Source: a virus (lineage: Duplodnaviria; Heunggongvirae; Uroviricota; Caudoviricetes). Taken from it: a stretch of DNA of 64,000 nucleotides. The notes beneath the pieces are model-generated. The model saw only the letters and a list, made by a program, of their open reading frames with translations. It was not told the origin of the DNA and searched no databases. Each line of letters opens with the position of its first letter. The first letter of the stretch is position 1. Below, piece by piece: positions 35,387 through 64,000 of the stretch. The translations under genes were made by a program, and so were the position numbers. The DNA lies in the IMG/VR virus record IMGVR_UViG_2576861193_000004, positions 32,001 through 96,000 of that record, one strand, 5' to 3'.

Positions 35387-35399
35387 AAGGAGCTTAATC

Positions 35400-35630: not shown

Positions 35631-35635
35631 AATCG

Positions 35636-44046: not shown

Positions 44047-45147
44047 ATGAGCGAGTCCAAATCGCCGGATGCCCTGAGAGCAATGGTAGCCGGTACGCTG
44101 GCTAATTTTCAGCACCCAACCCTGAAACACAACCTGACTACGCTTAAAGCGTTACACCATGTTGCGTTGATGGATGACACACTGCATGTCGAACTAATCA
44201 TGCCTTTCGTGTGGAATAAGCCTTTTGAAGACCTGAAAGAGCAATGTAGTGGTGATCTGCTCCGTATCACTGGCGCAAAGGCTATTGACTGGAAGCTGTC
44301 GTACAACATTGCCACGCTTAAGCGCGTCAAAAACCAACCAGGCATTAATGGCGTTAAGAACATTATCGCCGTCAGCTCAGGCAAGGGCGGCGTGGGTAAA
44401 TCCTCCACGGCGGTAAACCTGGCACTGGCGTTGGCTGCTGAAGGTGCGAAAGTTGGTATTTTGGATGCCGATATCTATGGTCCATCAATTCCAACCATGC
44501 TGGGCGCGGAAAACCAACGTCCAACCTCACCTGACGGTACTCACATGGCACCTATCATGTCTCATGGCCTGGCAACCAACTCTATTGGTTATCTGGTCAC
44601 CGACGACAATGCAATGGTGTGGCGTGGACCGATGGCCAGCAAGGCGCTGATGCAGATGTTGCAGGAAACTCTATGGCCTGATCTGGACTATCTCGTTCTC
44701 GATATGCCGCCGGGCACTGGTGATATTCAGTTGACGCTGGCGCAGAACATTCCTGTAACTGGTGCGGTTGTGGTAACTACGCCGCAAGACATCGCGCTGA
44801 TCGATGCGAAGAAAGGCATTGTGATGTTCGAAAAAGTCGAAGTGCCGGTACTGGGTATCGTCGAAAACATGAGTGTGCATATTTGCAGTAACTGCGGTCA
44901 TCACGAGCCAATTTTTGGCACCGGTGGCGCACAGAAACTGGCCGAGAAATACAACACGCAGTTGTTAGGCCAAATGCCACTTCATATCTCTCTTCGTGAA
45001 GATCTGGATAACGGAACACCAACCGTTATTAGTCGTCCAGATAGCGAATTTACGGCTATTTATCGTGACCTCGCAGATCGCGTTGCTGCCCAAATGTATT
45101 GGCAAGGTGAAGTAATACCTGGCGAAATCGCATTCCGCGCAGTGTGA
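44047..45147 (+). CDS. apbC: iron-sulfur cluster carrier protein ApbC/Mrp
   Basis: P-loop GKGGVGKSSTAVNLA, CxxC motif (CSNCGHHEP), divergent from metG as in E. coli. Confidence 0.95.
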   Translation: MSESKSPDALRAMVAGTLANFQHPTLKHNLTTLKALHHVALMDDTLHVELIMPFVWNKPFEDLKEQCSGDLLRITGAKAIDWKLSYNIATLKRVKNQPGINGVKNIIAVSSGKGGVGKSSTAVNLALALAAEGAKVGILDADIYGPSIPTMLGAENQRPTSPDGTHMAPIMSHGLATNSIGYLVTDDNAMVWRGPMASKALMQMLQETLWPDLDYLVLDMPPGTGDIQLTLAQNIPVTGAVVVTTPQDIALIDAKKGIVMFEKVEVPVLGIVENMSVHICSNCGHHEPIFGTGGAQKLAEKYNTQLLGQMPLHISLREDLDNGTPTVISRPDSEFTAIYRDLADRVAAQMYWQGEVIPGEIAFRAV

Positions 45148-48625: not shown

Positions 48626-49857
48626 GCGAGTTGAGTTATCTGGAAAAATTGCTGGATGGGGTTGAGGTTGAGTGGTTGCCATTGGGGAAACTAGGTGAAT
48701 TAGTTCGTGGAAATGGATTGCCTAAGTCTGATTTTACCGAATCTGGGGTTCCTGCCATACACTATGGTCAGATATATACTTTTTACGGATTATCTACTGA
48801 AACAACAAAGTCATTTGTTTCCCATGAAACGGCGAAGAAGCTTAAAAAGGTTAACTCTGGTGATGTTGTTATTACTAACACAAGCGAAAATTTTACTGAT
48901 GTTGGTAAGGCGCTTGTTTATCTAGGTAAAGAGCAAGCTGTTACTGGTGGCCATGCAACTATTTTCAAGCCAAATAGCACTATTATTGGGAAATACTTTG
49001 CCTATTTCACGCAAACGGATTCTTTTGCAAATGAGAAAAGGAAATACTCCAAGGGAACTAAAGTAATTGATGTGTCTGCATCGGATATGGCGAAAATTAT
49101 TATCCCTATCCCCTGTCCGGAAAATCCCAAAAAATCCCTTGCTATCCAGTCTGAAATCGTTCGGATTCTGGACAAATTTACTGCACTTACCGCTGAGCTT
49201 ACCGCTGAGCTTACCATGCGTAAAAAACAGTACAACTACTATCGCGACCAATTGCTGAGTTTTAAAGAAGGTGAGGTTGAGTGGAAAACTTTGGGAGAAG
49301 TGGCTCAATACTCGAAAACAAGAATTAGTTTCGAACTACTTGATGAAAGGAATTATGTTGGCGTAGATAATCTGCTGCAAAACAGAGCAGGAAAATCATT
49401 ATCTAATCATGTACCCACATCAGGTAAATTAACGGAGTTTATACCTAACGATATACTGATTGGGAATATCCGCCCATATTTGAAAAAAATTTGGCAAGCA
49501 GATTGTATCGGTGGAACAAATGGCGATGTATTGGTTATTCGTTGCATAGATAGCTCAATAAATACCAGATATCTATATCAGATTTTGGCAGATGACAAAT
49601 TCTTTGAATACAACATGCAGCATGCTAAAGGAGCAAAAATGCCGCGTGGCAGTAAAGAGGATATAATGAAATACCCAATCCCTGTACCGCCACTCACCTT
49701 GCAAGCTCGCATTGTCGAAATACTCAACAAATTCGATACCCTGACAAACTCCATCACTGAAGGTCTTCCGCGTGAAATCGAATTACGCCAGAAACAATAC
49801 GAATACTACCGTGATTTACTGTTCAGTTTCCCAAAACCTGAAACTGTCAGTAATTAA
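48622..49857 (+). CDS. hsdS: type I restriction-modification specificity subunit, type IC-like
   Basis: Two target-recognition domains separated by a central conserved region carrying the TAELTAEL repeat. C-terminal YYRDLL repeat of the conserved motif. Overlaps hsdM stop. Confidence 0.9.
49186..49209 (+). repeat. 2 x 12-bp tandem repeat CTTACCGCTGAG encoding TAEL-TAEL in HsdS
   Basis: Perfect tandem duplication inside the hsdS central conserved region. Confidence 0.9.
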
Positions 49858-49978
49858 TTGACCATTGCTACCGACCGGGCCACCTTAACACCCGGTCTGT
49901 ATATAGACTATTTTTTACGCGCCGGAAGTCACTCTTAACGCCCTTCCGGCCCTTGCCAGGCGGCACAAAGGATGCGCT

Positions 49979-52900
49979 ATGACTCATCAAACACACACCA
50001 TTGCTGAATCCAATAACTTTATCGTCCTTGATAAGTACATCAAAGCTGAGCAAACAAGCGACAGCTACCAGAGCGAATCGGACCTGGAACGTGAACTGAT
50101 TCAGGACCTGCGGAATCAGGGTTATGAATTTATTTCCGTAAAATCACAGTCGGCAATGCTGTCCAATGTTCGGGAACAGCTTCAGAGCCTCAATGGTGTG
50201 ATGTTTAATGACAGCGAGTGGCGGCGCTTCACGGAGCAGTATCTGGACAATCCCAGCGATGGTATTCTGGATAAGACCCGTAAAATCCATATCGACTATA
50301 TCTGCGACTTTATTTTTGACGACGGGCGTCTTGAGAACATCTATCTGATCGATAAAAAGAATCTCATGCGCAACAAAGTGCAGATTATCCAGCAGTTTGA
50401 ACAGGCAGGTTCTCATGCTAACCGTTATGACGTCACGATCCTGGTTAATGGCTTGCCTCTGGTGCAAATCGAACTGAAAAAGCGCGGCGTGGCGATTCGT
50501 GAGGCTTTCAACCAGATACATCGTTACAGCAAAGAGAGTTTTAACAGCGAAAATTCCCTGTTTAAGTATCTGCAACTGTTTGTCATTTCTAACGGCACCG
50601 ATACCCGTTATTTTGCCAACACCACAAAGCGCGATAAAAACAGTTTTGACTTCACCATGAACTGGGCGAAATCAGACAACACGCTGATTAAAGACCTCAA
50701 AGACTTTACCGCTACCTTTTTCCAGAAACATACCCTGCTTAATGTTCTGGTGAACTACAGCGTGTTTGACAGTAGTCAGACGCTACTGGTGATGCGACCG
50801 TACCAGATTGCAGCTACCGAACGGATCTTATGGAAAATCAACAGCTCCTATAAAGCGAAAAACTGGTCTAACCCCGAAAGCGGTGGCTTTATCTGGCACA
50901 CCACTGGTTCCGGTAAAACACTGACCAGCTTTAAAGCCGCGCGTCTGGCAACTGAACTGGACTTTATTGATAAAGTCTTCTTCGTGGTCGACAGGAAAGA
51001 CCTCGATTACCAGACCATGAAGGAATATCAGCGTTTTTCGCCAGACAGCGTCAACGGCTCGGAAAATACCGCAGGTCTTAAACGAAATCTGGATAAGGAC
51101 GATAACAAAATTATCGTCACCACTATTCAGAAACTTAATAACCTGATGAAAGCAGAAAGCGACCTGCCTGTATACAATCAGCAAGTGGTGTTTATATTTG
51201 ATGAATGCCACCGCAGCCAGTTTGGAGAAGCGCAGAAAAACCTGAAGAAGAAATTCAAACGCTATTATCAGTTTGGTTTTACCGGCACCCCTATTTTCCC
51301 GGAAAATGCCTTAGGCTCAGAAACGACCGCCAGCGTATTTGGTCGTGAATTGCATTCGTATGTAATTACCGATGCGATTCGTGACGAAAAAGTGCTCAAA
51401 TTCAAGGTGGACTACAACGATGTGCGGCCACAGTTTAAGTCTTTAGAGACAGAAACTGACGAGAAAAAACTGAGTGCGGCTGAAAATCAGCAGGCGTTTC
51501 TTCATCCCATGCGTATTCAGGAAATCACGCAATATATCCTGAACAACTTCCGCCAGAAGACTCACCGTACTTACCCCGGCTCCAAAGGTTTTAATGCCAT
51601 GCTGGCAGTAAGCAGCGTGGATGCCGCGAAAGCCTATTACGCGACGTTTAAACGGTTACAAGAGGAAGCCGCTAATAAATCTGCTACCTATAAACCACTG
51701 CGTGTTGCGACAATCTTCTCCTTTGCCGCCAATGAAGAACAAAATGCCATTGGTGAAATTTCCGATGAAACTTTTGATACCAGCGCAATGGACAGCAGTG
51801 CTAAAGAGTTTCTTGACGCTGCAATTCGTGAGTATAACAGCTATTTTAAAACTAACTTCAGCACCGACAGTAACGGTTTTCAGAACTACTATCGTGATTT
51901 AGCCCAACGGGTTAAAAATCAGGATATCGATCTGTTAATTGTCGTTGGGATGTTTTTAACCGGCTTCGACGCTCCAACATTGAACACGCTATTCGTCGAT
52001 AAAAACTTGCGTTTTCACGGCCTGATGCAGGCATTCTCCCGTACCAACCGCATTTATGACGCTACTAAAACCTTCGGTAACATCGTCACTTTTCGGGATC
52101 TGGAACGCTCAACCATTGATGCCATAACGCTGTTTGGTGATAAAAATACTAAAAATGTGGTGTTAGAAAAGAGTTATGCAGAGTATATGGAAGGCTTTAC
52201 TGATGCTGCTACAGGTGAAGCTAAACGCGGCTTTATGGCAGTAGTTTCAGAACTGGAACAACGGTTCCCTGACCCTGCCAGTATTGAAAGTGAAAAAGAG
52301 AAGAAAGACTTCGTTAAACTGTTTGGCGAATACCTGCGTGCCGAGAACATCCTGCAAAACTATGATGAATTTGCCACGCTGAAAGCCCTGCAACAAATCG
52401 ATCTTAGCGATCCTGTTGCGGTAGAAAAATTCAAAGAAGAACATTATGTGGATGATGAAAAGTTCGCTGAATTGCAAACGATTCGTCTCCCTGCTGAACG
52501 CAAGATTCAGGATTATCGTTCTGCCTATAACGATATTCGTGACTGGCAGCGCCGCGAGAAAGAAGCTGATAAAAAAGAAAAATCAACCACTGACTGGGAT
52601 GACGTGGTTTTTGAGGTCGATTTGCTGAAGTCTCAGGAAATAAACCTGGATTATATCCTTGGACTGATTTTCGAACACAACAGACAAAATAAAGGCAAGG
52701 GCGAAATGATCGAAGAGGTCAAACGCTTAATTCGTTCAAGCCTGGGGAACCGGGCGAAAGAGGGCCTGGTGGTCGATTTTATTCAGCAAACGAACCTGGA
52801 TGATTTACCAGACAAAGCCAGCATCATTGACGCGTTCTTTACCTTTGCTCAACACGAACAGCTACGTGAAGCAGAAGCGTTGATTAAAGAAGAAAATCTC

Positions 52901-53095
52901 AATGAAGAGGCGGCGAAACGCTATATTCGCACGTCTTTAAAACGCGAATACGCCACCGAAAATGGCACAGAATTAAACGAGACATTACCAAAACTTAGTC
53001 CGTTAAACCCGCAATATAAAACGAAAAAACAGACGGTTTTCCAGAAAATCGTCACGTTTATTGAAAAGTTCAAAGGAGTAGGTGGGCAGATATAG
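49979..53095 (+). CDS. hsdR: type I restriction enzyme endonuclease/translocase subunit
   Basis: 1038 aa with SF2 helicase motifs (TGSGKT, DECHRS, GFTGTP). Confidence 0.9.
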
Positions 53096-53740: not shown

Positions 53741-54355
53741 CTAATCATACTTGGAGGTATTTATCACCAGAATTTTGTTTGTATAAATCTTCTTAATATC
53801 CCATGTGACATTACCGGAATACCATTGGCCGTTATACACTTGGTTTCCAGTTGCACCTGTCATAGTTACATAGACAGGTCTGTCGTAATCGGTTCGTCTA
53901 TAGTTATATACCCCAACCATAGCAGGCATTACTGCGCACGGATACCCCATATCTATTGTAAATTGTGGGTCAGAAATAGTGATAAGTTTCGCATCAAGGG
54001 GCATCATCTCACCGTGATACACCATTGCGCCTGCGCTGTTATACATGGCAATGCCATAGCCAGAATGTGGTAACACCATATCAGAAAAAGCATAAACTGT
54101 TATTGTTCCGGGGCTACCATTTACCTGATGCAATCTGAGAGCATTGTATCCGTTACTATTTTCATGAATAAACATCATGTTCGCCTTATTACTGCTTTTT
54201 ATGAAGAAAAAGCATGATTTGTTTGATGGGATTGATGTTTTAAAAACAGAACCTTTAGATGCAGACATTGTCCCTTTATTAATCAGATTTTGCGGAGTAA
54301 ATTCTGGACTCATCCACAAACCTCCATCTGATTGAGTAATTGACATCCCGAACAT
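53741..54355 (-). CDS. hypothetical beta-rich protein (Asn/Tyr/Gly/Thr-rich)
   Basis: AT-rich ORF. Track start 54412 is TTG. ATG at 54355 lies 2 nt after the stop of the upstream 93-aa gene. Confidence 0.45.
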   Translation of the reverse strand: MFGMSITQSDGGLWMSPEFTPQNLINKGTMSASKGSVFKTSIPSNKSCFFFIKSSNKANMMFIHENSNGYNALRLHQVNGSPGTITVYAFSDMVLPHSGYGIAMYNSAGAMVYHGEMMPLDAKLITISDPQFTIDMGYPCAVMPAMVGVYNYRRTDYDRPVYVTMTGATGNQVYNGQWYSGNVTWDIKKIYTNKILVINTSKYD

Positions 54356-54357
54356 AA

Positions 54358-54639
54358 TTATCCCCAGTATGTGTATATGTAAGAACCAAGCCCCGTATAT
54401 AAATTTGACCAACTAACCGTATTTCCATTAATAGTAACTTTCGGAACAGGTAAATTGATGTAGTTGTCGTTGTTAAGAGGCATCAATGACCACACGGCAT
54501 GAAGTGATTTACCCGGTGGCGGATTAGAGTACGTCTTAGAGCCTGATGACGCCGTAAATCGATCAAGAAAAAAAATAGGTGTAAGGAAGCCAGTAACGTT
54601 AATTCCTTTATTGTTGTAAATCCCTGTACCGTATGCCAT
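54358..54639 (-). CDS. hypothetical protein (93 aa)
   Basis: ATG 54639 with SD AGGGTG, terminator-like hairpin upstream, coupled to the following gene. Confidence 0.45.
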   Translation of the reverse strand: MAYGTGIYNNKGINVTGFLTPIFFLDRFTASSGSKTYSNPPPGKSLHAVWSLMPLNNDNYINLPVPKVTINGNTVSWSNLYTGLGSYIYTYWG

Positions 54640-54693
54640 TTTTCACCCTTGTTTTTATCAACACAATATGGCCGATCATGCGGCCATATCAGA

Positions 54694-55263
54694 TCAATTA
54701 GAGCTTTGAAAGACTTTGTGTGGTTGTGTTGCGAGGTTATGTCGATGGCTTAACTCACGCATCATGTCTTCAAGGCGACTCTTTGTGTCGTCGAGTTGGT
54801 CGGCCATTGCTCCCAAAAGCTGACGAACGGCCATCGGATCATCGCTGTTTAGTGATGGCATTTTATAACCCGCCTGAGAAGACATAAGATTGAACGCAGA
54901 CATCAACATCGTTAGAGAGGATTTAAGCCCAGCAATTTCACGATCTTTGCTGGCAATAATCGCCTCACTCTTGTTAGTGTCATCAGTACGTTGAGTCTCG
55001 CTCACCATATCCAAAGTCGCCTGCAACTTATCAGCGAGCTCTTTTTCAGCAAGATAATGAACGCCGAAATGATGTGCTAAAGCTACAACCTGAGTTGGTT
55101 CTTCAAAGGTGGAATTAAAATTAAGTACTGTAAACAGTCTCTCAAATATGGAAACGTCTTCTGTTCCCCGAACAATACCTAACATTTTGACAAGTTCATT
55201 AGCATCCATTTCTTCGAATAGGGCGTTTTGTTCATCAGCTATTGCTTTGCATTTCTCGCACAT
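54694..55263 (-). CDS. hypothetical protein with N-terminal CxxC
   Basis: 189-aa ORF (MCEKCK...) preceded by the conserved promoter-palindrome cassette. Confidence 0.5.
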   Translation of the reverse strand: MCEKCKAIADEQNALFEEMDANELVKMLGIVRGTEDVSIFERLFTVLNFNSTFEEPTQVVALAHHFGVHYLAEKELADKLQATLDMVSETQRTDDTNKSEAIIASKDREIAGLKSSLTMLMSAFNLMSSQAGYKMPSLNSDDPMAVRQLLGAMADQLDDTKSRLEDMMRELSHRHNLATQPHKVFQSSN

Positions 55264-55560
55264 GTGTTTTCCTTAATTCTTAAACAAGTTGTTTTCTTAT
55301 TGGGTTTATTGTGATGTGGCATATAAGGGGAGCAAGCTAAACGTAAAGGTGCAAACTCTCTATTTTGGTCAACGAAACACAAGGGCCATTTGGCCCTTGC
55401 CATTAACACGTTGCTTTACGGACTAGCGGATAGGCGAAGTAGATCGCCAAACCAATGAGGACGCCATCAGAAATGACAGACATCATCTTTCCCGTAAAAT
55501 CCACCAACACCGCCATCACCAGAAGAGCAATGACGGTCACAAGCCGGAATCTCTCAAGCA

Positions 55561-55986
55561 TTAGAGATAAGCATCCAGTGACAACTGAAGCGCCTGGGCG
55601 ATCTTTTTCAGTGCCTGCTCTTCTTGTTCACCAATGCCGTCCTGGTCGGCAATATCAAGGCACAGACACAGAACATCGACCGCCTCTGGAGTGCCCGCAA
55701 TATCAGCCAGCTCACGCATAGCCTGCGCATTCGCAGAACGAGGGGACGCTTCGTAACGAGCACGGATATTGGCGCTCATTTGGGCAATTTCACCAGCAAA
55801 CGGAGAAAACGCAGGCAGAGCTGCAATTGTCTTCTCAAGAATGGCAATTTCTTTTGCGTCACATGTGCCGTCGGCATAGGAGATCATGTACGCGCCCCAC
55901 ACGGTGGCCTCAACCGCATCACGGTTCTCCATTTTTTTGACTTCGATAACAGCTTTACGAGTTTTCTTTTTGAAGAAACCTAACAT
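55561..55986 (-). CDS. TerB-like (tellurite-resistance TerB fold) protein
   Basis: 141 aa with a TerB-like helical pattern. Preceded by the conserved palindrome cassette. Confidence 0.5.
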   Translation of the reverse strand: MLGFFKKKTRKAVIEVKKMENRDAVEATVWGAYMISYADGTCDAKEIAILEKTIAALPAFSPFAGEIAQMSANIRARYEASPRSANAQAMRELADIAGTPEAVDVLCLCLDIADQDGIGEQEEQALKKIAQALQLSLDAYL

Positions 55987-56079
55987 GTGTTTTCCTTTTG
56001 TTATTTGTCAAAACAAGTTGTTTTATAGTTTCATAAATTGCTTACGCAAAGATGGTCAATGCATATGCACTAACAACCG

Positions 56080-56268
56080 TCAGAAATAACCAAGTACCGA
56101 ACCGACTGGAAAAACAAAAATCCCAACTACACGAGCCAAGGTCATGCCAGCCTGAAACTTGAGATCACCTGAGCAAACGAGTTTTATAATGTTGGATACC
56201 CAACCGGCGGCCATGAGAGCCAGAATTGCCAGCCAAATTTTCCCAAAGTGATTTGAAAGCCAGTTCAT
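56080..56268 (-). CDS. small membrane protein with two TM helices (holin-like)
   Basis: 62 aa with TM1 IWLAILALMAAGWV and TM2 VVGIFVFPVGSVLGYF. Start overlaps stop of upstream small ORF. Confidence 0.45.
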   Translation of the reverse strand: MNWLSNHFGKIWLAILALMAAGWVSNIIKLVCSGDLKFQAGMTLARVVGIFVFPVGSVLGYF

Positions 56269-56516
56269 ACAACCACCTTAGTCACAACATGATCCTGAGT
56301 AACTGGATGAACTTGAGGTATCGCATCCACCGTCATCCCATCCAGAGTGACAGGACGCTCTACTGTAGTGGTGGTAATTGTCGTCGACGGAGGTGTGGTG
56401 ATGGATGAATCCGGCATCAAAAGGCTCTGACCGGCTGGTACGGTAATCGCTGCCAGAGTTGCCAAAATCACTCCGTAGGCCATTGGCTTCAGTCGATTTC
56501 GTTGAAAATTTTCCAT
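56265..56516 (-). CDS. small protein with hydrophobic segment and Thr/Pro-rich linker
   Basis: ATG 56516 with SD AAGGA at 8 nt. Translationally coupled to the 2-TM gene. Lies inside a longer alternative-frame ORF (56278-56772). Confidence 0.35.
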   Translation of the reverse strand: MENFQRNRLKPMAYGVILATLAAITVPAGQSLLMPDSSITTPPSTTITTTTVERPVTLDGMTVDAIPQVHPVTQDHVVTKVVV

Positions 56517-56914
56517 GAGAACTGTCCTTGTGTGTCCGGGTTTCACGCAACACACGAGAAGCGACGCTATTACGCACCTTCTCCATGCCTACTGTCGTGC
56601 CCAGATTAGCTATGGCGGTAGCTTGCGCATTAATGCGCTTCTCCAGTTCAAACACTCGTTCTTCCAGTTCCGTAAGGCGTGCGGAAACACGACCACTAAA
56701 CAGCTCGGTCAGCACCAGGCGAATTGAACGGGGACGTTTATTGAAAGAAGTGAAAGACGTTTGACGGGCCATGTGGATTCCATTCAGTGTCAGAAAGAGT
56801 TGCGGCTGGCCAAGCCAGCCGCCTTTTGGCGTTCCATCCTGGAACCGTACCTAACCGGTACTTCGTCATCCTGACGATTTATAAGATACCTGATTTATTA
56901 TAGTGGGTAAATAC

Positions 56915-57523
56915 TTACTTATCTTTTTGTGACAAAAACCCAATGTCATGCTTGTGAGGCATATCAGCTGCGGAATAGGCGGCGATCTTCGCCAGACGGT
57001 CACACATTTCGTTCTCGCGATGACCTGCATGGCCTTTAACCCACTTCCAGCGGACATTATGACGACTGGCGGCCGCGTCGAGACGTTTCCAGAGATCCAC
57101 GTTTTTGACTGGCTTCTTCTCAGACGTGATCCATCCGTTACGCTTCCAGCCTTTCATCCAGAGCGTCATGCCGTTTTTAAGATACTGGCTGTCGGAATGC
57201 AGGATCACGTTGCAGGGGTACTTCAGACGCTCCAGCGCAATCAGGGCGCCCATCATCTCCATCCGATTGTTGGTCGTGCTGTGAAAGCCCTCAGAAAGCT
57301 CGCGCTCTTCGCCTCGATACTGGAGAACGATGCCGTAACCGCCCGGCCCGCCCGGATTTTTGAGGCAAGAGCCATCACTGAATACTTTTACGGTTTTGAG
57401 CTGGGGATTGAACTCGACTACGGGGGTTTTGAAGTTGGTACGGGATTGCTGGTGGGTTTGGTATCTGGCTTTGGACTTCGTGCGGCAGCCAGTATGTTGC
57501 CGGGCTGGGGTCTTGGTCGTCAT
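56915..57523 (-). CDS. ribonuclease H (RNase HI family) with N-terminal basic extension
   Basis: RNase HI core motifs ([53 protein letters not shown]). ATG 57523 with SD GGAG; track start 57580 is GTG. Confidence 0.85.
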
Positions 57524-57552
57524 TTTGGCTCCAGAATCGCGCGCCGCGACGA

Positions 57553-57591
57553 TTTTTTTTTCCCTCGCGCGTGTGCGCACGCGTGCGTGTA
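57553..57591. promoter_or_regulatory. T9 homopolymer followed by a 26-bp perfectly alternating pyrimidine-purine GC-rich tract
   Basis: Read directly: TTTTTTTTT then CGCGCGTGTGCGCACGCGTGCGTGTA, containing the 12-bp palindrome CGCACGCGTGCG. Lies 20-60 bp upstream of the RNase H ATG. Confidence 0.6.
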
Positions 57592-58117
57592 AATATTAAA
57601 AATTTTTTAGAAAAGAAAAATTACTTCCCAGAACAGGTTTTAATAAAACCTGAACTGAACGAACGAAGTGAGTGAAGTTCACCTCGAACGAAGTGAGAGG
57701 TTGTCTTTTCAGGTAATACTCTCCCAGGGAGGTGAGTACAAAATTACCTCACCAACCTGGTCGTTTCATAACCTGAAAAGTTATGACCTAAGTCTACTGC
57801 CAGCTTAGGCTTGGGAAGTTATGGATGACAGCACCCCAGAACCGAGATCTTCCCACACTTTATGAAGGGGAGTACTGGATTCAACCTCTCGAAACACTCC
57901 AGACTCGACAATCATAAAGTGACCCTTCTCTCTGCCCACTTTGGTTCCCCCTTCCCCAACCCCTAAACGGTGCCGGTTCTACGCTGGTAGTGAGCTTTTT
58001 TAAACCTGACGCCAGTGACGCTATCCCCCACCCATCAGGTCGAGCTGCCAAAAGTATCCGGAAGCGGATAGATTGTATCACTGGTTAGTGGTGTTTTGAA
58101 TGGTAAGTACTTACATA

Positions 58118-58348
58118 TTATATTGATTGATTAATTTCTCGCCCATGAAGCTGGACGTTCAGGGCAAACACCTCATTGATGAGTTCCCCTAACAGCTGCT
58201 CCACCAGCTCTTTGTGCTCGCCTGAATGAAGACATTTGAGCGACCATTCGTAGAGACTGAAAGCCTTATCGCGATCTTTCATCATGTCGCGCACTGTGGC
58301 CAGAAAATCGCTCTCAACGAGCGCTACGACGTTCGTCGGGTATACCAT
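58118..58348 (-). CDS. hypothetical protein
   Basis: 76-aa ORF downstream of the compound inverted-repeat element. Confidence 0.4.
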   Translation of the reverse strand: MVYPTNVVALVESDFLATVRDMMKDRDKAFSLYEWSLKCLHSGEHKELVEQLLGELINEVFALNVQLHGREINQSI

Positions 58349-58431
58349 GATAGTTTTCCTTACTGTGGTTCATAAAATCGATTCTAGAGCGTCTGGAGAG
58401 GGGCTCCAGTAGGTTCTGAAGGTGTAAAACG

Positions 58432-58535
58432 GTCTGGGAGTTGTTTGGAAATCACGTCTTAAAAAGCCTGCGTCTGTATATATTAATAATTAGTACTTAG
58501 TTATTTATATATACGGAAGCAGGTTCTCAAACTAA
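58432..58535. promoter_or_regulatory. compound inverted-repeat element (copy 2), upstream of the 58118-58348 gene
   Basis: Same nested architecture and about 80 percent identity by eye to the 26808-26904 element. Confidence 0.65.
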
Positions 58536-58550
58536 CTCCCAGACTGGTGT

Positions 58551-59144
58551 TTACGCTGCCTTTTTACGTGGTCTCTTCTTCCTGACAACATTGGCAGGGT
58601 CATAACCAACCAGCTTTTTCATCACCGCCAGCGGTATTTTACTGATGGTGTGCCCAGCTTCCTGACAGTAGCCACGGAAGATAAGCAACATGCTGCCACC
58701 AGGGTTGATGTCTACTTCCACCAGCCCAAGTTCAACATCCGGCTCAACAAATGCCACGCGGCCACCTGACAAGATGACTGTTTCGTTTGCGCACTCAGCC
58801 GCACGCTCATACCACCGCGTATCGAGGGATTGTGGTATCAGCATGATCGTCGTCACTCCACGCGTCTGCTCGCGAATGGCCGCTTCTATCCAGGGGGTGA
58901 TTTTGGAGTAAGGCGGGTTAAGGAACGCCACAGTGCCAGGTTCTCCCCAACTGCACTTGAGCGCATCACGCTCAACACCGATAAAGTTCGGCAGGAGAGC
59001 ATTATCTTTGTTGCAGGCGACGTCCACATCGAACTTTACGCCTATGTAACGTTGGATGGCGACAAACAACCACTGCGGTGTGCGCCAAAGGTCGCGAAGA
59101 GAGGCATCACGCTCTCGCTTTTTGATTTTTTCGGCTGCGATCAT
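58551..59144 (-). CDS. DNA N6-adenine methyltransferase (phage Dam-type)
   Basis: Motifs DLWRTPQWLF and FLNPPYS typical of small phage N6A methyltransferases. Confidence 0.8.
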   Translation of the reverse strand: MIAAEKIKKRERDASLRDLWRTPQWLFVAIQRYIGVKFDVDVACNKDNALLPNFIGVERDALKCSWGEPGTVAFLNPPYSKITPWIEAAIREQTRGVTTIMLIPQSLDTRWYERAAECANETVILSGGRVAFVEPDVELGLVEVDINPGGSMLLIFRGYCQEAGHTISKIPLAVMKKLVGYDPANVVRKKRPRKKAA

Positions 59145-59299
59145 TACTTTACTCTGATAGGTAAATACTTACCTATTTTTTCATTTAATCCAACGGATAG
59201 CAAACAAAGAAGAACGCGCCAGATTCGCAAACGGGAAGCTCTCTGGCGCGTTTTATCGATGCTGGGTATGCAATGAGCTTACCCAGCGTCCTAAAGCTC

Positions 59300-60256
59300 T
59301 CAGGGTGCTTTAGATCGCGCAGAGGAACATTGTTCAATGGAATACTCCGCTATGAATTTTTTGACGATCGGCGACTCTTTATTAAGCGTTAGATTTCCAC
59401 CTTCTCTGGTGGCAATGCCTGTGGCCGGAAACACAGCCATCATCTGGCCAGCCTGAGTCGAAGCCGTGTTAAGTGGATATGGTTTCTCCGGGTAGCTCAT
59501 TAGCGCCAGTTTAATGCTATTGCTGGTCGCCGTGTTCGTATCAAGAATATGGCGCATTGCGATTACCGTGTAGACGCTGATTTCCGGGCCACCACTAAAC
59601 CAGTTCAGGAGGTTTAAGATTTTGTCTTTCGCTTTGACCGGCGCGCCTTCAAATGCGGCAGTAAAGCGCTCACTATCCAGACCGGCTGTCACATAGAACG
59701 ATTCATCCTTACCCTCCAGCGTGAAGCGAGGTTTGGTCGGCGCACGCTTTGATTGTGCCTTCTGGTGTTTTGGCTGCTCTTCTTCAGGTTTAGGCCCAGA
59801 CTCCACTGAAGGTAAAAGCGTTGGAGCTATATCGGTGGTCTCAGCGCTTCGAGCATCAAGTTCAGGTGTTGGCTCGTCCACTATCTCCGCAATAGGGCCA
59901 CGCTCTGGCACCTCGACCTTCACCGATTCGTGTGCAATCTCAAGCTCTTCCAGAACGCCACTCAGATCGCCGGTAGAGCTGACATTCATGACTTCATCTG
60001 CCACCGCCTCGACTGGTTTTGCGATTGCATCATCCAGACCAGAAAGAAGATCGTCGATCTCGTCGACACCGCTCATTTTCGCAGCTTTCTGAACCGGTTC
60101 TTCGAGAGATTGCAGCATTGCAGTCAATTCATCCAGGTCATCGTTTTTAACAATGTTTGAAACTGCGCTCATTTTTAACTCCTTATGTTTTCGTTGGTGC
60201 ATTTCCGCGTTTTGGTTGAGCTTATTCTGGCAAAACCTATCAGGCAGAAAAGTCAT
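59300..60256 (-). CDS. hypothetical protein with acidic N-terminal region (start probably internal, ~60172)
   Basis: ORF. N-terminal half is Asp/Glu-rich low complexity. Confidence 0.45.
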   Translation of the reverse strand: MTFLPDRFCQNKLNQNAEMHQRKHKELKMSAVSNIVKNDDLDELTAMLQSLEEPVQKAAKMSGVDEIDDLLSGLDDAIAKPVEAVADEVMNVSSTGDLSGVLEELEIAHESVKVEVPERGPIAEIVDEPTPELDARSAETTDIAPTLLPSVESGPKPEEEQPKHQKAQSKRAPTKPRFTLEGKDESFYVTAGLDSERFTAAFEGAPVKAKDKILNLLNWFSGGPEISVYTVIAMRHILDTNTATSNSIKLALMSYPEKPYPLNTASTQAGQMMAVFPATGIATREGGNLTLNKESPIVKKFIAEYSIEQCSSARSKAP

Positions 60257-60300
60257 AACTACAGGCAGTTAAAGGAACTGGAGGCAAAGAAAAAGCGCCA

Positions 60301-60855
60301 TCAGGCGCTTTCGAATGGGAGTTTGAAGAAGCCGTATTTCTCTCGGGCTTTGAAGAAACACTGCATCATCAGATCAGTATCGTAGAGAGCACTGTGGGCT
60401 TTCTCACGGTCGTAAGTGAACCCAAGTGAGAATGCCAGCTCTTCCAGGCGTGGGCGCTTCCCATCCTCGGTAGCCCACAGGGAAAATAGAGTGTCAACCA
60501 GAGGGATTTCTGGCAATTTCACTCCATAGCTTCCGAACTCGTGGCGAATGAACGGAAGGTCAAAAGCCTCCCCGTTATGGGCGACTAACGCGCTACATGC
60601 CCCCATATATGCAGCAATCTTACCTGCGTGATCAGCCAACAGCGGTTCAGCAGCCAGTTCTTCCAGAGAGATACCATGTACAGCCTGCGCCTTCGGATCG
60701 ATGCTACGACGCGGGTTGAAGCGCATCTCAAGGCTGTCAATGCGCTTCTGGGTTTCCAGTTCATAACGAGATATCGCGATTTCGATAATTTTGTGGCCGG
60801 ATGTGAAGTCCAGCCCCGTGGACTCAATATCGACGCCACCGACAATCGTGGTCAT
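60301..60855 (-). CDS. DnaQ-like 3'-5' exonuclease (DEDDh)
   Basis: Exo I VDIESTGLD, Exo II HNGEAFDLPF, Exo III HSALYDTD. Confidence 0.75.
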   Translation of the reverse strand: MTTIVGGVDIESTGLDFTSGHKIIEIAISRYELETQKRIDSLEMRFNPRRSIDPKAQAVHGISLEELAAEPLLADHAGKIAAYMGACSALVAHNGEAFDLPFIRHEFGSYGVKLPEIPLVDTLFSLWATEDGKRPRLEELAFSLGFTYDREKAHSALYDTDLMMQCFFKAREKYGFFKLPFESA

Positions 60856-60864
60856 TGGTACTCC

Positions 60865-61299
60865 TTACAGCTTCTTCGCGCCTTTCAGCAGTGCGCCACG
60901 CACAAACTGAGCAGCCTTTTTTAGTGCGTCCTCGCCGCTTTCGCAGACGACCGGCTCACGCCATTCGCCCGTTGACGTGTTGAGGAGCTGGATTTGGTTA
61001 GTCTCCAGGCAAACGGACACATACAAAACCGTACCGCCCGAGAGTTTGAGATGCATAGGAAACAGAGAGCGCTTGGTGCCGCCATTGAATTGCGACATCG
61101 CCGCATTAATGGCTTCACCAACCTCTTCCCCAACAAGACCTTGAACGGACTCAAACACTGCTCGGATAGCCAGACGTGCTTCACGTTCACTCATTAAGGA
61201 ACGGGATTGTTCGTCAGCAATACGGATCAGTGCTTCAATCGCTTTGCGATCTAATTCATCCGACAGGGGAAGTTCATCTATCATTCTGTTTTTCCTCAA
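60865..61299 (-). CDS. hypothetical protein
   Basis: 144-aa ORF in operon context. Confidence 0.45.
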   Translation of the reverse strand: MRKNRMIDELPLSDELDRKAIEALIRIADEQSRSLMSEREARLAIRAVFESVQGLVGEEVGEAINAAMSQFNGGTKRSLFPMHLKLSGGTVLYVSVCLETNQIQLLNTSTGEWREPVVCESGEDALKKAAQFVRGALLKGAKKL

Positions 61300-61347
61300 T
61301 TCATTTCGCGTGTCTTATTGTCACACTGCCCAACAGGGGAACAACAT

Positions 61348-61992
61348 TCAGTGGAAGGTCACTCGTCCTGTTATACGGCTCTCGATGTTTTCAGTGGCTC
61401 TTTCCAGCACACGCAATACCGATCTGGCTCGCGCCTCAACCGTGCGGCACTTTTCAGAGATAATGAAAACCTGCAAATCGCCGGTATGGGGAAGGGCACT
61501 AATTTTCGTCAGCTCGCCACACATAAGTGCATCGATGCGAGCAACATAGAGACGGTCAAGCGATCCTCGCTGGGGACGCGCGAGATCTTTGCCGGAAAGA
61601 TCAACGCCCGGGCGAAGACCCGCTATAGCATTAAAGTTGGAAATGGCCGCTTTGTGGCAAAACTGCTCAATGTCGAGAGCCAGCTCGATGCAGCGGTCTT
61701 CGTTGGTCTGGCCGACCAGGTCAAGCGTATAAGCCATGACATCGGCTGGCGTGCGGTCGATGACAAAACCTTCAACGCCGCGGGTGATCATCTCGATGTG
61801 TCTGGCAATCTCCATCTGAACCTGAAGACGCTCGTAAAGGGGCAAACGCTCGCCAACCTTCACCCCCAGACTGCTCATCAGCTTGCCAACACCGGCATCC
61901 ACATACGGAATGCCATAGTGCGCATCGATGTACCTTGCCAGGGTTGTTTTCCCACTGCCCTGTGCGCCAGTGATTCCAATCCGGTAATCCAT
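61348..61992 (-). CDS. P-loop nucleotide kinase (putative dNMP kinase)
   Basis: Walker A GITGAQGSGKTT at N-terminus. Next to DHFR and ThyA genes. Confidence 0.55.
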   Translation of the reverse strand: MDYRIGITGAQGSGKTTLARYIDAHYGIPYVDAGVGKLMSSLGVKVGERLPLYERLQVQMEIARHIEMITRGVEGFVIDRTPADVMAYTLDLVGQTNEDRCIELALDIEQFCHKAAISNFNAIAGLRPGVDLSGKDLARPQRGSLDRLYVARIDALMCGELTKISALPHTGDLQVFIISEKCRTVEARARSVLRVLERATENIESRITGRVTFH

Positions 61993-62468
61993 TACGACCT
62001 TCTGTATACGATCTGCAAAAAGCCAGGCTCATCCTCATTTGCACGTTGGGTATAAGCCGTTTCGACTGGTACGAACCCTAAAGAACGCATCATTGGCGCC
62101 GGGAAGAACGCATCCGCGCACGGCACATCCACGCCAATATGCGATAGCCAGATCTCTTCTACGTATGGCAGAAATAGCGAATAAATCTGCCCGCCACCAA
62201 TCACCCAGACCGGAGCTGGTAGTTTCAAAACGTCATCGATGCCAGCGGGGTAGAAACCATTGGGGATATAGCCACGAGAGCGCGTCAAAATGAGGTTATG
62301 GCGCTCTGGCAGCGGGCGTTTGAGACTTTCCATCGTCTTACGTCCCATCACGACAGTGGCGTTTTTGGTGAGTTGTTTGAACAGTTTCAGATCGGTCGGG
62401 CAACGCCAGGGAAGTTCGTTGCCAATGCCGATTTCATAGTTGCGGCCGACAGCTGCAATCATCTTCAT
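61992..62468 (-). CDS. dihydrofolate reductase
   Basis: DHFR pattern MIAAVGRNYEIGIGNELPW...LKLFKQLTKNATVVMGRKT, 158 aa. Coupled to kinase gene (ATGA). Confidence 0.85.
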   Translation of the reverse strand: MKMIAAVGRNYEIGIGNELPWRCPTDLKLFKQLTKNATVVMGRKTMESLKRPLPERHNLILTRSRGYIPNGFYPAGIDDVLKLPAPVWVIGGGQIYSLFLPYVEEIWLSHIGVDVPCADAFFPAPMMRSLGFVPVETAYTQRANEDEPGFLQIVYRRS

Positions 62469-62974
62469 TGGCTTACCTCATAGATGGTTGGTCGCTGGTG
62501 AGAATCTGCCAGCGCAGAACGCAGACGCGGATCATGAACCAGTGCGGCGATAAGTAAGTCGCCTTTGTGCTCTGCCAGCGTGCGCTTGATATGGGTTTCA
62601 AAACTGACACCGCGCGGAACCAGGTGGAGCCAGTCATAATCAATGCCGAAGTCCTTCAGCCAGCGCTTGGTTGGGCCTTCGAGCGCTTCCGGACGACTAC
62701 TGATAAGCACCACTTCAGCACCGGAGCGAGCAAAACCACGCAACATGCGGCTGGTGGGAAAGATGAGTTCATCACCGGCAATGAGAGCGCCTGCATCCGC
62801 ATCAGGCACTGCTTTGCGATGGCTGGCTCTCGCCAGCACACCTTCAATTTCACACAACACATACATCCCTCTGGCCATATCACACCGCCACTGGAACCTT
62901 GATCCACGGAAGAGGGCTGTAGCCGCACACCTGCACACCTTCCCATTTGAAGTCGTCCAGTTCGGCCCATTCAT
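62465..62974 (-). CDS. hypothetical protein (start likely internal ATG ~62878)
   Basis: ORF overlapping the ThyA 3' end. Shorter version starting MARGMYV would overlap by only a few nt. Confidence 0.35.
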   Translation of the reverse strand: MNGPNWTTSNGKVCRCAATALFRGSRFQWRCDMARGMYVLCEIEGVLARASHRKAVPDADAGALIAGDELIFPTSRMLRGFARSGAEVVLISSRPEALEGPTKRWLKDFGIDYDWLHLVPRGVSFETHIKRTLAEHKGDLLIAALVHDPRLRSALADSHQRPTIYEVSQ

Positions 62975-63995
62975 GCGGGAAGATGACTACCGGGTCGGAC
63001 TCTTTGGGCGGCTCGCGCTTCATCAGTTCCTCAACGCCTTCCATGTGGTTGTCGTAGAGATGAACGTCAAAGCCAAAATGCACGAATGCGCCAGCCATGT
63101 GGCCGGTGATCTTCGCGAGGAAGTGGGTGAGAATGCCGTAACCGGCGATGTTGAACGGCATACCAACAAAGGTATCGACACTGCGTTGAACCAGGCATGA
63201 GTTCAGAATGCGTTTCGGGATGCCCAGCTCGTCCAGCATGTTCTCAGTAATGCCGCCATCTCTTTCCAGAAGACACAGCATCTGGGTGTAAATGGACTCG
63301 TGGCCGTGGCGGTTGTGCTGTATGCCAATGTCGGTGGCCATAGTCAGTCGGGTCTCAAAGTCCAGCTCGCGACTCCACAGTGAAAACACGAAATGGCATG
63401 GCGGCAGCTTCATATCTTCCAGTTCGCCAACATTCCAGGCATTCAGCAGGATGCGACGATCTGTAGGGTTGGTGCGAAGCGTGTCAACGATACGCTGTAG
63501 CTGGTCAATTTCACGGGACAACACAACGCGATCTTCACTTACGCCCAGATACCCCTCGACCTTGTACCCGCGCTCACGGAACGTGTCGATTTTGCGCAGA
63601 TACTCGCTATGGCTCACGATGCGAGTGTCTTCCCACCGACGCCATTGCTTGCCATAGACCGGGCCTAAATCGCCATTTTCATCGGCCCAGGCATCCCAGA
63701 TTTTGACGCCATTGTCTTTCAGGAACTGGATGTTGCCTGTTCCTTTGAGATACCACTCCAGCTCAACCAGTAACGGCTTCAGATTGACGGCTTTTCCGGA
63801 GATAAGTGGAACAGATCCGCCCGTCAGCATGTAGCAGGAAGGGACATATGAAACACTTTTTGTGCCGGTTCCGGTGCGATCACCCGCGTGAACGCCAGTG
63901 TTGAGCACCGTTTCAACCACTTTGGCATACGAACCACTGGCAAACTGACCGTTCGTAAAGTCTCGATTCAGTAGGATAGACAAAATCAACCTCAC
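62880..63995 (-). CDS. thymidylate synthase with insertions
   Basis: ThyA motifs DRTGTGT, WADENGDLGPVYGKQWR, NAWNVGELEDMKLPPCH, GMPFNIAGY; about 100 aa longer than E. coli ThyA. Confidence 0.8.
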   Translation of the reverse strand: MRLILSILLNRDFTNGQFASGSYAKVVETVLNTGVHAGDRTGTGTKSVSYVPSCYMLTGGSVPLISGKAVNLKPLLVELEWYLKGTGNIQFLKDNGVKIWDAWADENGDLGPVYGKQWRRWEDTRIVSHSEYLRKIDTFRERGYKVEGYLGVSEDRVVLSREIDQLQRIVDTLRTNPTDRRILLNAWNVGELEDMKLPPCHFVFSLWSRELDFETRLTMATDIGIQHNRHGHESIYTQMLCLLERDGGITENMLDELGIPKRILNSCLVQRSVDTFVGMPFNIAGYGILTHFLAKITGHMAGAFVHFGFDVHLYDNHMEGVEELMKREPPKESDPVVIFPHEWAELDDFKWEGVQVCGYSPLPWIKVPVAV

Positions 63996-64000
63996 ACAAG

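What the first reader, a model, noticed from the sequence alone, without database searches (positions are those of the whole stretch)
58551..63995. Nucleotide-metabolism module with an insertion-bearing thymidylate synthase
Dam-type methylase, DnaQ-like exonuclease, P-loop kinase, DHFR and ThyA are co-linear on the minus strand. The ThyA is about 100 residues longer than E. coli ThyA, with insertions after the YGKQWR and PPCH motifs. Such modules are typical of large virulent phages and of SSU5/pHCM2-type phage-plasmids rather than of lambda-like prophages, which conflicts with the lambda-like tail module on the left.
Basis: partly seen in the sequence, partly recalled or inferred. Interest (0 to 1): 0.4.

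Follow-up and report, generated by a model that had tools for sequence, protein, structure and literature searches.

The report
Phage-plasmid dTMP operon, long ThyA
This is the already annotated nucleotide-supply gene block of an SSU5-type phage-plasmid of E. coli; its thymidylate synthase really carries two folded, conserved extra segments, a trait it shares with many large phages whose purpose nobody has tested.

Summary
On the minus strand lie a Dam-type methylase, a DEDDh exonuclease, a P-loop NTPase, DHFR and ThyA. The region is 95% identical in DNA to Salmonella phage SSU5 and 99% to E. coli plasmids. The tail module also belongs to SSU5-type phages, so the "conflict" does not exist. ThyA (367 aa, TTG start at 63983) is 99% identical to SSU5 ThyA. 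Compared with E. coli ThyA it has a 15-aa N-extension, a 34-aa insert (Ec 105/106) and a 51-aa insert (Ec 156/157). These inserts are not frame errors, introns or inteins. The ORF is continuous, both inserts are under purifying selection, AlphaFold2 predicts them with pLDDT above 90, and they match no known domain. All catalytic residues are intact, so a canonical thymidylate synthase is expected. The same inserts occur in 84 of the 150 best 50%-identity cluster representatives and in 240-kb jumbo phages. The DHFR is the recently named DfrA51 type. The module is already known. The role of the inserts is untested; I think a peripheral structural or partner-docking role most likely. Interest is low.

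The parts
62880..63983 (-). thyA: thymidylate synthase, 367 aa, TTG start (a GTG at 63995 would give 371 aa)
   Evidence: PF00303 E=4e-79. TIGR03284 220.8 bits against a cutoff of 108. 365/367 identical to SSU5 ThyA. AF2 pLDDT 93.7. Foldseek TM-score 0.94 over E. coli TS. All catalytic residues invariant.
63519..63620 (-). ThyA insert 1: residues 122-155, 34 aa, between E. coli residues 105 and 106. Predicted to extend a beta-hairpin into three strands plus two short helices.
   Evidence: position. (strands 117-124, 141-146, 152-159; helices 125-130, 132-137; pLDDT 91-97). (pN 0.038 against pS 0.561 versus Cyrano). No Pfam or PDB match when searched alone.
63213..63365 (-). ThyA insert 2: residues 207-257, 51 aa, between E. 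coli residues 156 and 157. Predicted as three helices replacing the tight beta-turn of the central sheet.
   Evidence: position. (helices 209-225, 231-242, 247-253; pLDDT 94-98). (pN 0.134 against pS 0.816). No Pfam or PDB match when searched alone.
63939..63983 (-). ThyA N-terminal extension, residues 1-15. The first 5 residues are predicted with pLDDT below 50.
62465..62878 (-). 137-aa HAD-fold protein resembling the PNKP 3'-phosphatase domain, with E-x-E/D where HAD enzymes have DxD. Starts 1 nt after the thyA stop and overlaps the DHFR start by 4 nt.
   Evidence: phrog_5387, with a weak hit to the polynucleotide kinase phrog_415. Pnkp1 (4xrp) E=7e-5, aligning VICDLDGTL with VLCEIEGVL. E10 invariant in 12 homologues. 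AF2 pLDDT 86. Foldseek TMq 0.81 to Pnkp1 and to the T4 Pnkp phosphatase.
61992..62468 (-). Dihydrofolate reductase, DfrA51 type, 158 aa
   Evidence: PF00186 E=1e-34. NF047324 trim_DfrA51 351.6 bits against a cutoff of 322. 152/158 identical to SSU5 DfrA51. Literature: PMC12217456 and PMC7725336.
61348..61992 (-). P-loop NTPase, 214 aa, N-terminal Walker A (GAQGSGKTT). A nucleotide-kinase-like protein with unknown substrate. Overlaps the DHFR stop by 1 nt.
   Evidence: AAA_28 38.7 bits against a cutoff of 27. phrog_2107 'thymidylate kinase' E=6e-10. A profile searched against PDB matches only the Walker A region.
60865..61284 (-). 139-aa conserved hypothetical protein
   Evidence: phrog_5373 E=2e-80, no function assigned. 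Annotated as hypothetical in SSU5, Cyrano and the Klebsiella relative.
60301..60855 (-). DEDDh 3'-5' exonuclease, DnaQ/RNase T-like, 184 aa
   Evidence: PF00929 E=4e-21. phrog_192 E=2e-47. Matches DnaQ equivalog models but scores below their cutoffs.
59300..60172 (-). 290-aa conserved hypothetical protein with an acidic N-terminal half
   Evidence: phrog_5235 E=2e-132, no Pfam match.
58551..59144 (-). Phage-type Dam N6-adenine DNA methyltransferase, 197 aa
   Evidence: PF05869 E=1e-36. TIGR01712 111.9 bits against a cutoff of 97.

Best explanation
The region is the conserved DNA-precursor and replication-accessory block of an SSU5-type phage-plasmid (a siphovirus that persists as a plasmid of about 100-115 kb).

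Core operon. The core is four tightly packed genes: thyA, a HAD-like gene, dfr and a P-loop gene. Junctions are 1 nt apart or overlap by 1-4 nt.
- ThyA methylates dUMP to dTMP with methylene-THF and releases dihydrofolate.
- The adjacent DHFR reduces dihydrofolate back to THF. The element therefore carries its own thymidylate cycle to sustain dTTP supply during its replication.
- Inferred: the P-loop protein phosphorylates a nucleotide.
- The role of the HAD-like protein is open.

ThyA chemistry. ThyA is chemically a canonical thymidylate synthase. Every catalytic, dUMP-binding and folate-binding residue and the C-terminal PVA[IV] are retained.

The inserts. The two inserts are independently folded surface elaborations placed at two loops of the TS fold: a beta-hairpin after QWR, and the turn between two central strands. 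They were inherited from a large clade of big-phage ThyA rather than acquired recently.

What the inserts do (inferred, about 50%): they modify quaternary contacts or dock partner proteins rather than change the chemistry. This could mean stabilising or privatising the obligate homodimer, or docking partners of the dTMP pathway. Otherwise (about 35%) they are stabilising decorations with no separate function.

Shown: gene identities, synteny, position of the inserts, their conservation, their predicted fold, and the intact active site.
Inferred: enzyme activity, the timing of expression, and the role of the inserts.

The confidence given (0.85) is for the identity of the module and for ThyA being a canonical thymidylate synthase, not for the role of the inserts.
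For: - Identity to SSU5 and to 696 plasmid records.
- Same gene order in SSU5, Cyrano and the Klebsiella phage-plasmid: RNaseH-hyp-Dam-hyp-exo-hyp-Ploop-DHFR-HAD-ThyA-MazG-NrdB-NrdA.
- ThyA scores above the TIGR03284 cutoff.
- Invariant residues R36, E74, W96, W99, Y110, R176, R177, C196, H197, R267, S268, D270, N278, H308 and Y310. These correspond to E. coli R21, E58, W80, W83, Y94, R126, R127, C146, H147, R166, S167, D169, N177, H207 and Y209.
- C146/N177/Y94/W80 are present in 149 of 150 representatives.
- AF2 pLDDT 93.7 with both inserts above 90.
- The core superposes on E. coli TS at TMt 0.94 but covers only 68% of the model.
- Long jumbo-phage TS models cover 84-87% of the model.
- pN/pS is 0.07 for ins1, 0.16 for ins2 and 0.07 for the core, measured against Cyrano.
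- 84 of 150 representatives carry both inserts; 33 carry only ins1 and 20 only ins2.
- Relatives P0046 and P0064 sit on phage-like contigs of 104 kb and 356 kb.
- The nearest annotated relatives are 240-kb jumbo phages.
- GC content of the inserts equals that of the gene.
- thyA/dhfR/nrdAB have been described on pHCM2 since 2002, as cited in PMC12928451.
Against: - No enzymology exists for this ThyA or for any insert-bearing relative that I could find.
The position of the inserts relative to the dimer interface and the active site is therefore not established here, and the partner-docking idea has no direct support.
- Distant insert-bearing ThyA genes are not next to DHFR, the HAD-like gene or the P-loop gene. 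This argues against the inserts being specific docking sites for those three proteins.
- Either insert can occur without the other.
Confidence: 0.85

Rival explanations
1. The ThyA homologue is not a thymidylate synthase. It is a dUMP or dCMP hydroxymethylase that feeds a DNA hypermodification pathway, with the P-loop protein acting as a 5-hmdU DNA kinase and the HAD-like protein as a helper.
For: - TS-fold hydroxymethylases and P-loop kinases do cluster together in thymidine-hypermodifying phages (established knowledge: T4 gp42, SPO1 gp29, the ViI/M6 systems).
- The P-loop and HAD-like proteins here have no assigned substrate.
- BFVD also lists dCMP hydroxymethylases as remote structural matches (TMq 0.48).
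Against: - Asn177, the dUMP-specific residue, is kept; it is not the Asp found in dCMP hydroxymethylase.
- W80, W83, Y94, H147 and the C-terminal PVAV that closes the TS active site are all retained.
- The protein scores above the thymidylate synthase equivalog cutoff.
- A translationally coupled DHFR makes sense only if dihydrofolate is produced; hydroxymethylases release THF.
Confidence: 0.04
2. The extra ThyA length is an artefact or a mobile insertion: a mis-assigned frame, a group I intron as in T4 td, or an intein. A canonical 264-aa ThyA would remain after correction.
For: Phage thyA/td genes are classic hosts of group I introns (PMC3984707). Some metagenomic relatives carry inserts of 130-270 aa at the same site.
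Against: - A single uninterrupted ORF is conserved at the same length in SSU5, Cyrano and the Klebsiella relative.
- The inserts are 34 and 51 aa, far below the size of an intein.
- No Hint, HNH or LAGLIDADG hit, or any other significant Pfam hit.
- No Rfam intron.
- Purifying selection acts at the protein level.
- The predicted fold is confident.
- GC content is the same as the rest of the gene.
Confidence: 0.01
3. The block is best seen as antibiotic-resistance cargo. The DHFR (DfrA51) gives the host trimethoprim resistance, and ThyA is accessory to that.
For: - The DHFR passes the NCBIfam DfrA51 cutoff and is 96% identical to the SSU5 protein.
- Cloned dfrA51 raised the trimethoprim MIC from 2-4 to 256-512 mg/L.
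- The protein bound trimethoprim about 9-fold more weakly than E. coli DHFR (PMC12217456).
Against: - The SSU5-clade DHFR of an E. coli O104:H4 plasmid did not confer resistance in another study (PMC7725336).
- The resistance data come from expression vectors, not from the native operon.
- No mobile element flanks the gene (PMC12217456).
- The gene is in conserved synteny with thyA, mazG and nrdAB in every relative, like the frd-td pair of lytic phages.
Confidence: 0.15

Closest known systems
Salmonella phage SSU5 genes SSU5_081-088 (and the pHCM2 / Escherichia phage Cyrano / Klebsiella ST13-OXA48phi12.3 equivalents)
   Same: Same genes in the same order and on the same strand. DNA is 95.3% identical to SSU5. 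ThyA is 99%, DHFR 96% and the P-loop protein about 95% identical.
   Different: - The window is a mosaic. Its tail module is Cyrano-like (97%), whereas this block is SSU5-like and only 76% identical to Cyrano.
- The closest E. coli plasmid lacks nrdAB beyond mazG.
- A type I R-M system lies to the left.
E. coli ThyA (PDB 2TSC, 1AOB and others) and human TS
   Same: 44% identity over the shared core and the same fold (TM-score 0.94). All active-site residues and the C-terminus are the same.
   Different: The window protein is 103 aa longer. Ins1 is 34 aa against 8 in human TS and 0 in E. coli. Ins2 (51 aa) has no counterpart in any solved TS; the best PDB match covers only 68% of the model.
ThyA of 240-kb jumbo phages (Salmonella SPN3US/SEGD1, Erwinia Wellington/Machina, Cronobacter CR5; also Pseudomonas 201phi2-1)
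   Same: Both inserts are present. One contiguous alignment spans 340-360 residues at 37-41% identity. Structural coverage is TMq 0.84-0.87.
   Different: These are virulent myoviruses. Their thyA is not coupled to dfr, the HAD-like gene or the P-loop gene, as judged from the contexts of metagenomic relatives. Some carry a further large insert at the site where L. casei TS has one.
T4 frd-td (DHFR-thymidylate synthase) pair
   Same: A phage-encoded thymidylate cycle next to nrdAB (established knowledge; PMC7725336).
   Different: T4 td is interrupted by a group I intron and lacks these protein inserts. The gene order is reversed, and there is no HAD-like gene between the two.

Membership tests
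Thymidylate synthase ThyA (PF00303 / TIGR03284, EC 2.1.1.45) | Profile score above the curated cutoff | tested here: met
   PF00303 266 bits against 24.3. TIGR03284 220.8 bits against 108.35.
Thymidylate synthase ThyA (PF00303 / TIGR03284, EC 2.1.1.45) | Catalytic Cys146; dUMP-specific Asn177; phosphate-binding Arg21, Arg166 and Arg126'/127'; Glu58, Trp80, Trp83, Tyr94, His147, Asp169; C-terminal PVA[IV] | tested here: met
   All aligned and invariant.
Thymidylate synthase ThyA (PF00303 / TIGR03284, EC 2.1.1.45) | TS fold | tested here: met
   AF2 model with pLDDT 93.7. Foldseek TMt 0.94 to E. coli TS.
Thymidylate synthase ThyA (PF00303 / TIGR03284, EC 2.1.1.45) | Catalyses dUMP + CH2-THF to dTMP + DHF | not testable with these tools
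   Needs an enzyme assay or complementation of a thyA mutant.
SSU5-type phage-plasmid | Collinear high nucleotide identity to SSU5-group phages in both the structural and the replication/nucleotide modules, and occurrence as non-mobilizable plasmids of about 100-115 kb | tested here: met
   The best plasmids are 106-114 kb; 684 of 696 are non-mobilizable; the one inspected is typed IncFIB. A ParA-like gene lies at 44047-45147.
DfrA51 (NCBIfam NF047324) | Score above the curated cutoff, with near-identity to SSU5 AFL47010.1 | tested here: met
   351.6 bits against 322. 152/158 identical.
DfrA51 (NCBIfam NF047324) | Confers trimethoprim resistance | not testable with these tools
   The literature conflicts: yes when cloned (PMC12217456), no for an O104:H4 homologue (PMC7725336).
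dCMP/dUMP hydroxymethylase (TS-fold) | Asp in place of Asn177 (for dCMP), loss of the TS hydride-transfer and closure residues, and no need for DHFR | tested here: not met
   Asn177, Trp80/83, Tyr94 and the PVAV C-terminus are retained, and a DHFR is coupled to the gene.
Intein / group I intron insertion | Hint domain of at least about 130 aa with a nucleophile and a terminal HN, or a non-coding ribozyme interrupting the ORF | tested here: not met
   The inserts are 34 and 51 aa and have no significant Pfam hit. No Rfam hit. The ORF is continuous.
HAD phosphatase, PNKP 3'-phosphatase type (for ORF 62465-62878) | HAD Rossmann-like fold | tested here: met
   Foldseek TMq 0.81 to 4xrp and 5uj0.
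HAD phosphatase, PNKP 3'-phosphatase type (for ORF 62465-62878) | Motif I DxD[GT] with an Asp nucleophile | tested here: not met
   The motif is E10-I-E12 (E or D at position 12), and E10 is invariant. The protein should not be filed as an active PNKP-type phosphatase.
Nucleoside/nucleotide monophosphate kinase (for ORF 61348-61992) | N-terminal Walker A plus recognisable NMP-binding and LID regions of a defined kinase family | tested here: inconclusive
   The Walker A motif and AAA_28 match are met. Beyond residue 60 or so there is no significant match to any solved kinase.

The most novel reading that the evidence does not exclude
The two inserts define an uncharacterised, phage-specific subfamily of thymidylate synthase, found in SSU5-type phage-plasmids and many jumbo phages. 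In this reading the added subdomains have a function of their own. They might prevent mixed dimers with the host's 44%-identical ThyA, or assemble a phage dTMP-synthesis complex. The function would not be mere decoration.
Probability: 0.25. Interest if true: 0.45.

Novelty: already known. Interest (0 to 1): 0.2.

Why it matters
The finding matters little as a discovery. The element, its gene order and its annotations are public, and the DHFR was recently named dfrA51. It has three practical points.
1. It removes a false anomaly: a lambda-like tail together with a "virulent-phage" nucleotide module is simply what SSU5-type phage-plasmids look like.
2. It flags that this window carries a gene that resistance pipelines will call trimethoprim-resistant, on evidence that is contested.
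3. It documents that a large clade of phage thymidylate synthases carries two conserved, confidently folded inserts that no solved structure contains. This is a tractable structure-function question for a classic drug-target enzyme.

Tried and rejected
I redid it with session sequences only.
- The afdb50 fold library was unavailable.
- Model coordinates are not exposed. I therefore could not measure where the inserts sit relative to the dimer interface or the active site.
- Searching each insert alone against Pfam and PDB sequences gave nothing significant. The Sedlin_N hit (E=0.0096) is below its cutoff and I take it as chance.
- Pfam on relatives with inserts of 130-270 aa showed no intein or endonuclease domain.
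- Rfam found no match in 54000-64000.
- Promoter and terminator scans were not above the shuffled expectation.
- A profile of the P-loop protein searched against PDB matched only the Walker A region, so no substrate could be assigned.
- Literature searches for a description of the TS inserts found none.
- The hydroxymethylase/hypermodification idea was considered and rejected on active-site residues and DHFR coupling.


Full report
**What is there.** The minus strand of 58551-63995 carries eight closely packed ORFs.
- a phage-type Dam methylase (58551-59144; PF05869 E=1e-36; TIGR01712 above its cutoff);
- a DEDDh/DnaQ-like exonuclease (60301-60855; PF00929);
- a P-loop NTPase (61348-61992; AAA_28 above its cutoff; Walker A at residues 8-16);
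- a DHFR (61992-62468; PF00186);
- a thymidylate synthase (62880-63983; PF00303 E=4e-79; TIGR03284 220.8 bits against a cutoff of 108).

Two are conserved hypotheticals (59300-60172, phrog_5235; 60865-61284, phrog_5373). The third is a 137-aa ORF (62465-62878) wedged between thyA and dfr. The junctions thyA / 137-aa ORF / dfr / P-loop are a 1-nt gap, a 4-nt overlap and a 1-nt overlap. These four genes therefore look translationally coupled.

**What element this is.** The block is 95.3% identical over 99% of its length to Salmonella phage SSU5. It is up to 99.5% identical to E. coli plasmids of 106-114 kb. In all, 696 plasmid records match, and 684 of them are typed non-mobilizable. The gene order RNaseH-hyp-Dam-hyp-exo-hyp-Ploop-DHFR-HAD-ThyA-MazG-NrdB-NrdA is the same in SSU5, Escherichia phage Cyrano and Klebsiella phage ST13-OXA48phi12.3.

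The left part of the window (tape measure, J, K, L, I) is 97% identical to Cyrano and 80% to SSU5. There is some mosaicism: the tail is Cyrano-like, while this block is SSU5-like and only 76% identical to Cyrano. The presence of rnhA, dhfR, thyA and nrdAB on pHCM2 has been reported since 2002, as cited in PMC12928451.

**The ThyA inserts are real.** RefSeq and the SSU5 record start the gene at TTG 63983, 6 nt after a GAGG, giving 367 aa. The protein is 365/367 identical to SSU5 ThyA. Against E. coli ThyA, HMMER gives three aligned blocks. A multiple alignment places the extra residues as follows:

| Extra segment | Residues | Length | Position |
|---|---|---|---|
| N-extension | 1-15 | 15 aa | before E. 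coli residue 1 |
| ins1 | 122-155 | 34 aa | between E. coli 105 and 106 |
| ins2 | 207-257 | 51 aa | between E. coli 156 and 157 |
| minor | 57; 326-327 | 1 and 2 aa | elsewhere |

**The inserts are not artefacts or mobile elements.**
- The ORF is continuous and has the same length in relatives that are about 76% identical in DNA.
- Against Cyrano, synonymous sites are near saturation (pS 0.56-0.82) while pN is 0.038 in ins1, 0.134 in ins2 and 0.056 in the core. Both inserts are therefore under purifying selection, ins1 as strongly as the core.
- GC content of the inserts equals that of the gene.
- Neither insert alone matches any Pfam family significantly or any PDB sequence, and Rfam finds no intron.
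- Lengths of 34 and 51 aa are far below the size of an intein.

**Predicted structure.** AlphaFold2 with 72 sequences gives pLDDT 93.7, and both inserts score above 90. Ins1 prolongs the hairpin after QWR into three strands (117-124, 141-146, 152-159) with two short helices. Ins2 forms three helices (209-225, 231-242, 247-253). The core superposes on E. coli TS at TM-score 0.94, but solved structures cover only 68% of the model. No solved TS therefore contains these segments. In the viral predicted-structure library the best matches, covering 84-87% of the model, are long TS proteins of jumbo phages such as Pseudomonas phage 201phi2-1.

**Chemistry.** All residues that define a thymidylate synthase are invariant in the alignments. 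In E. coli numbering these are R21, E58, W80, W83, Y94, R126, R127, C146, H147, R166, S167, D169, N177, H207 and Y209. The C-terminal PVAV is also retained. C146/N177/Y94/W80 are present in 149 of the 150 best cluster representatives. Together with the coupled DHFR, which is needed only if dihydrofolate is produced, this argues for a canonical TS and against a dUMP or dCMP hydroxymethylase. Activity itself is inferred, not shown.

**How widespread the inserts are.** Long ThyA proteins (350-378 aa, 46-87% identical) occur on contigs of about 100-113 kb. These come from Salmonella, Klebsiella, Enterobacter, Raoultella, Providencia, Xenorhabdus and Morganella. An exhaustive HMMER search of 1.84 billion representatives gives 10,916 hits. 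Among the best 150, 117 have at least 15 extra residues at the ins1 site and 104 have at least 20 at the ins2 site. Of these, 84 have both, so 33 have only ins1 and 20 have only ins2. Thirty-eight also have an insert at the site where L. casei TS carries one (my recollection of that site), and a few have 130-270 aa at the ins1 site with no Pfam domain.

Two distant members lie on phage-like contigs of 104 kb and 356 kb, with no adjacent DHFR. Among annotated phages, the nearest relatives outside the SSU5 group are 240-kb jumbo phages: Erwinia Wellington and Machina, Salmonella SPN3US and SEGD1, and Cronobacter CR5. They align in one contiguous stretch at 37-41% identity. The inserts are thus an old family trait of a big-phage ThyA clade, not a peculiarity of this window.

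**Role of the inserts.** This could not be determined. The sequence argues against a nucleic-acid-binding role: ins2 is acidic (9 D+E against 4 K+R) and ins1 is neutral.

My preferred reading is that they alter quaternary or partner contacts. This is inferred, at about 50%. One possibility is that they keep the obligate homodimer from mixing with the host's homologous ThyA. The main alternative is a stabilising decoration without separate function. I found no publication describing the inserts.

**Neighbouring genes.**
- DHFR. It scores 351.6 bits on NCBIfam trim_DfrA51 (cutoff 322) and is 152/158 identical to the SSU5 protein. Wang et al. 2025 (PMC12217456) named that gene dfrA51. When cloned, it raised the trimethoprim MIC to 256-512 mg/L, and its Kd for trimethoprim was 6.4 µM against 0.73 µM for E. 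coli DHFR. They noted no flanking mobile elements. Sánchez-Osuna et al. 2020 (PMC7725336) found that an SSU5-clade DHFR from an E. coli O104:H4 plasmid did not confer resistance. Whether the native operon gives resistance is unresolved.
- The 137-aa ORF. It aligns with the phosphatase domain of Pnkp1 (E=7e-5). It is predicted to fold as a PNKP-type HAD domain (pLDDT 86; TMq 0.81). It has E-I-E/D where HAD enzymes have DxD, and this Glu is invariant in 12 homologues. It should not be called an active phosphatase without an assay.
- The P-loop protein. Beyond its Walker A region it resembles no solved kinase. "Kinase" remains an inference.

**Verdict.** The module is already known and annotated. 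The only open point is the untested function of two conserved ThyA inserts, which are shared with many large phages.

Noticed in passing
window 61992-62468 (-): The DHFR passes the curated NCBIfam cutoff for trimethoprim-resistant DfrA51 and is 96% identical to the SSU5 protein. Two papers disagree on whether this clade confers resistance (PMC12217456 against PMC7725336).
   Followed up: partly
window 62465-62878 (-): A 137-aa protein sits between thyA and dfr. It has a PNKP-type HAD phosphatase fold, but an invariant Glu replaces the Asp nucleophile (E-x-E/D instead of DxD), and the motif IV acidic residues are not conserved. It may be a pseudo-enzyme or a repurposed domain. A strongly conserved PTSRMLRGFxRSGxE motif lies at residues 41-55.
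   Followed up: partly
window 47063-53095 (+): A complete type I restriction-modification system: hsdM 47063-48625, hsdS 48622-49857, hsdR 49979-53095. It lies in a lower-GC stretch that the phage relatives (SSU5, Cyrano) do not cover, so it is probably defence cargo. It is also present in plasmid NZ_CP122497.
   Followed up: partly
window 1-25000 versus 58000-64000: The window is a mosaic. The tail module is 97% identical to Escherichia phage Cyrano and 80% to SSU5. The nucleotide module is 95% identical to SSU5 and only 76% to Cyrano.
   Followed up: partly
L002 (NZ_CP122497) 14164-17372, beyond the right end of the window: In the closest E. coli plasmid inspected, the genes after mazG are hypotheticals and an SbcC-like ATPase. 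SSU5, Cyrano and the Klebsiella relative have nrdB-nrdA at that position.
   Followed up: no
proteins P0169, P0170, P0181, P0183, P0190, P0175, P0197: Some metagenomic ThyA relatives carry very large inserts: 130-270 aa at the ins1 loop, or 60-200 aa at the L. casei-type site. No Pfam domain, including inteins, is found in them. The TS fold seems to have three insertion hot spots.
   Followed up: partly
window 32001-36000: Marked GC dip (0.36-0.40 against about 0.48 elsewhere) in the middle of the window. Its content was not examined.
   Followed up: no
window 56802-56822 (-): A strong terminator-like hairpin (9-bp stem, 8 G-C pairs) lies about 90 nt downstream of the rnhA-like gene (56915-57523). 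It may be the end of the long minus-strand transcription unit.
   Followed up: no
window 44047-45147 (+): A 366-aa ParA/Mrp-like P-loop NTPase (PF10609 E=2e-102).
   Followed up: no
L006 (Cyrano) 5560-6663: The Cyrano record labels its ThyA homologue 'ThyX Thymidylate synthase'. The protein is a ThyA (87% identical to this one), so that annotation is wrong.
   Followed up: yes
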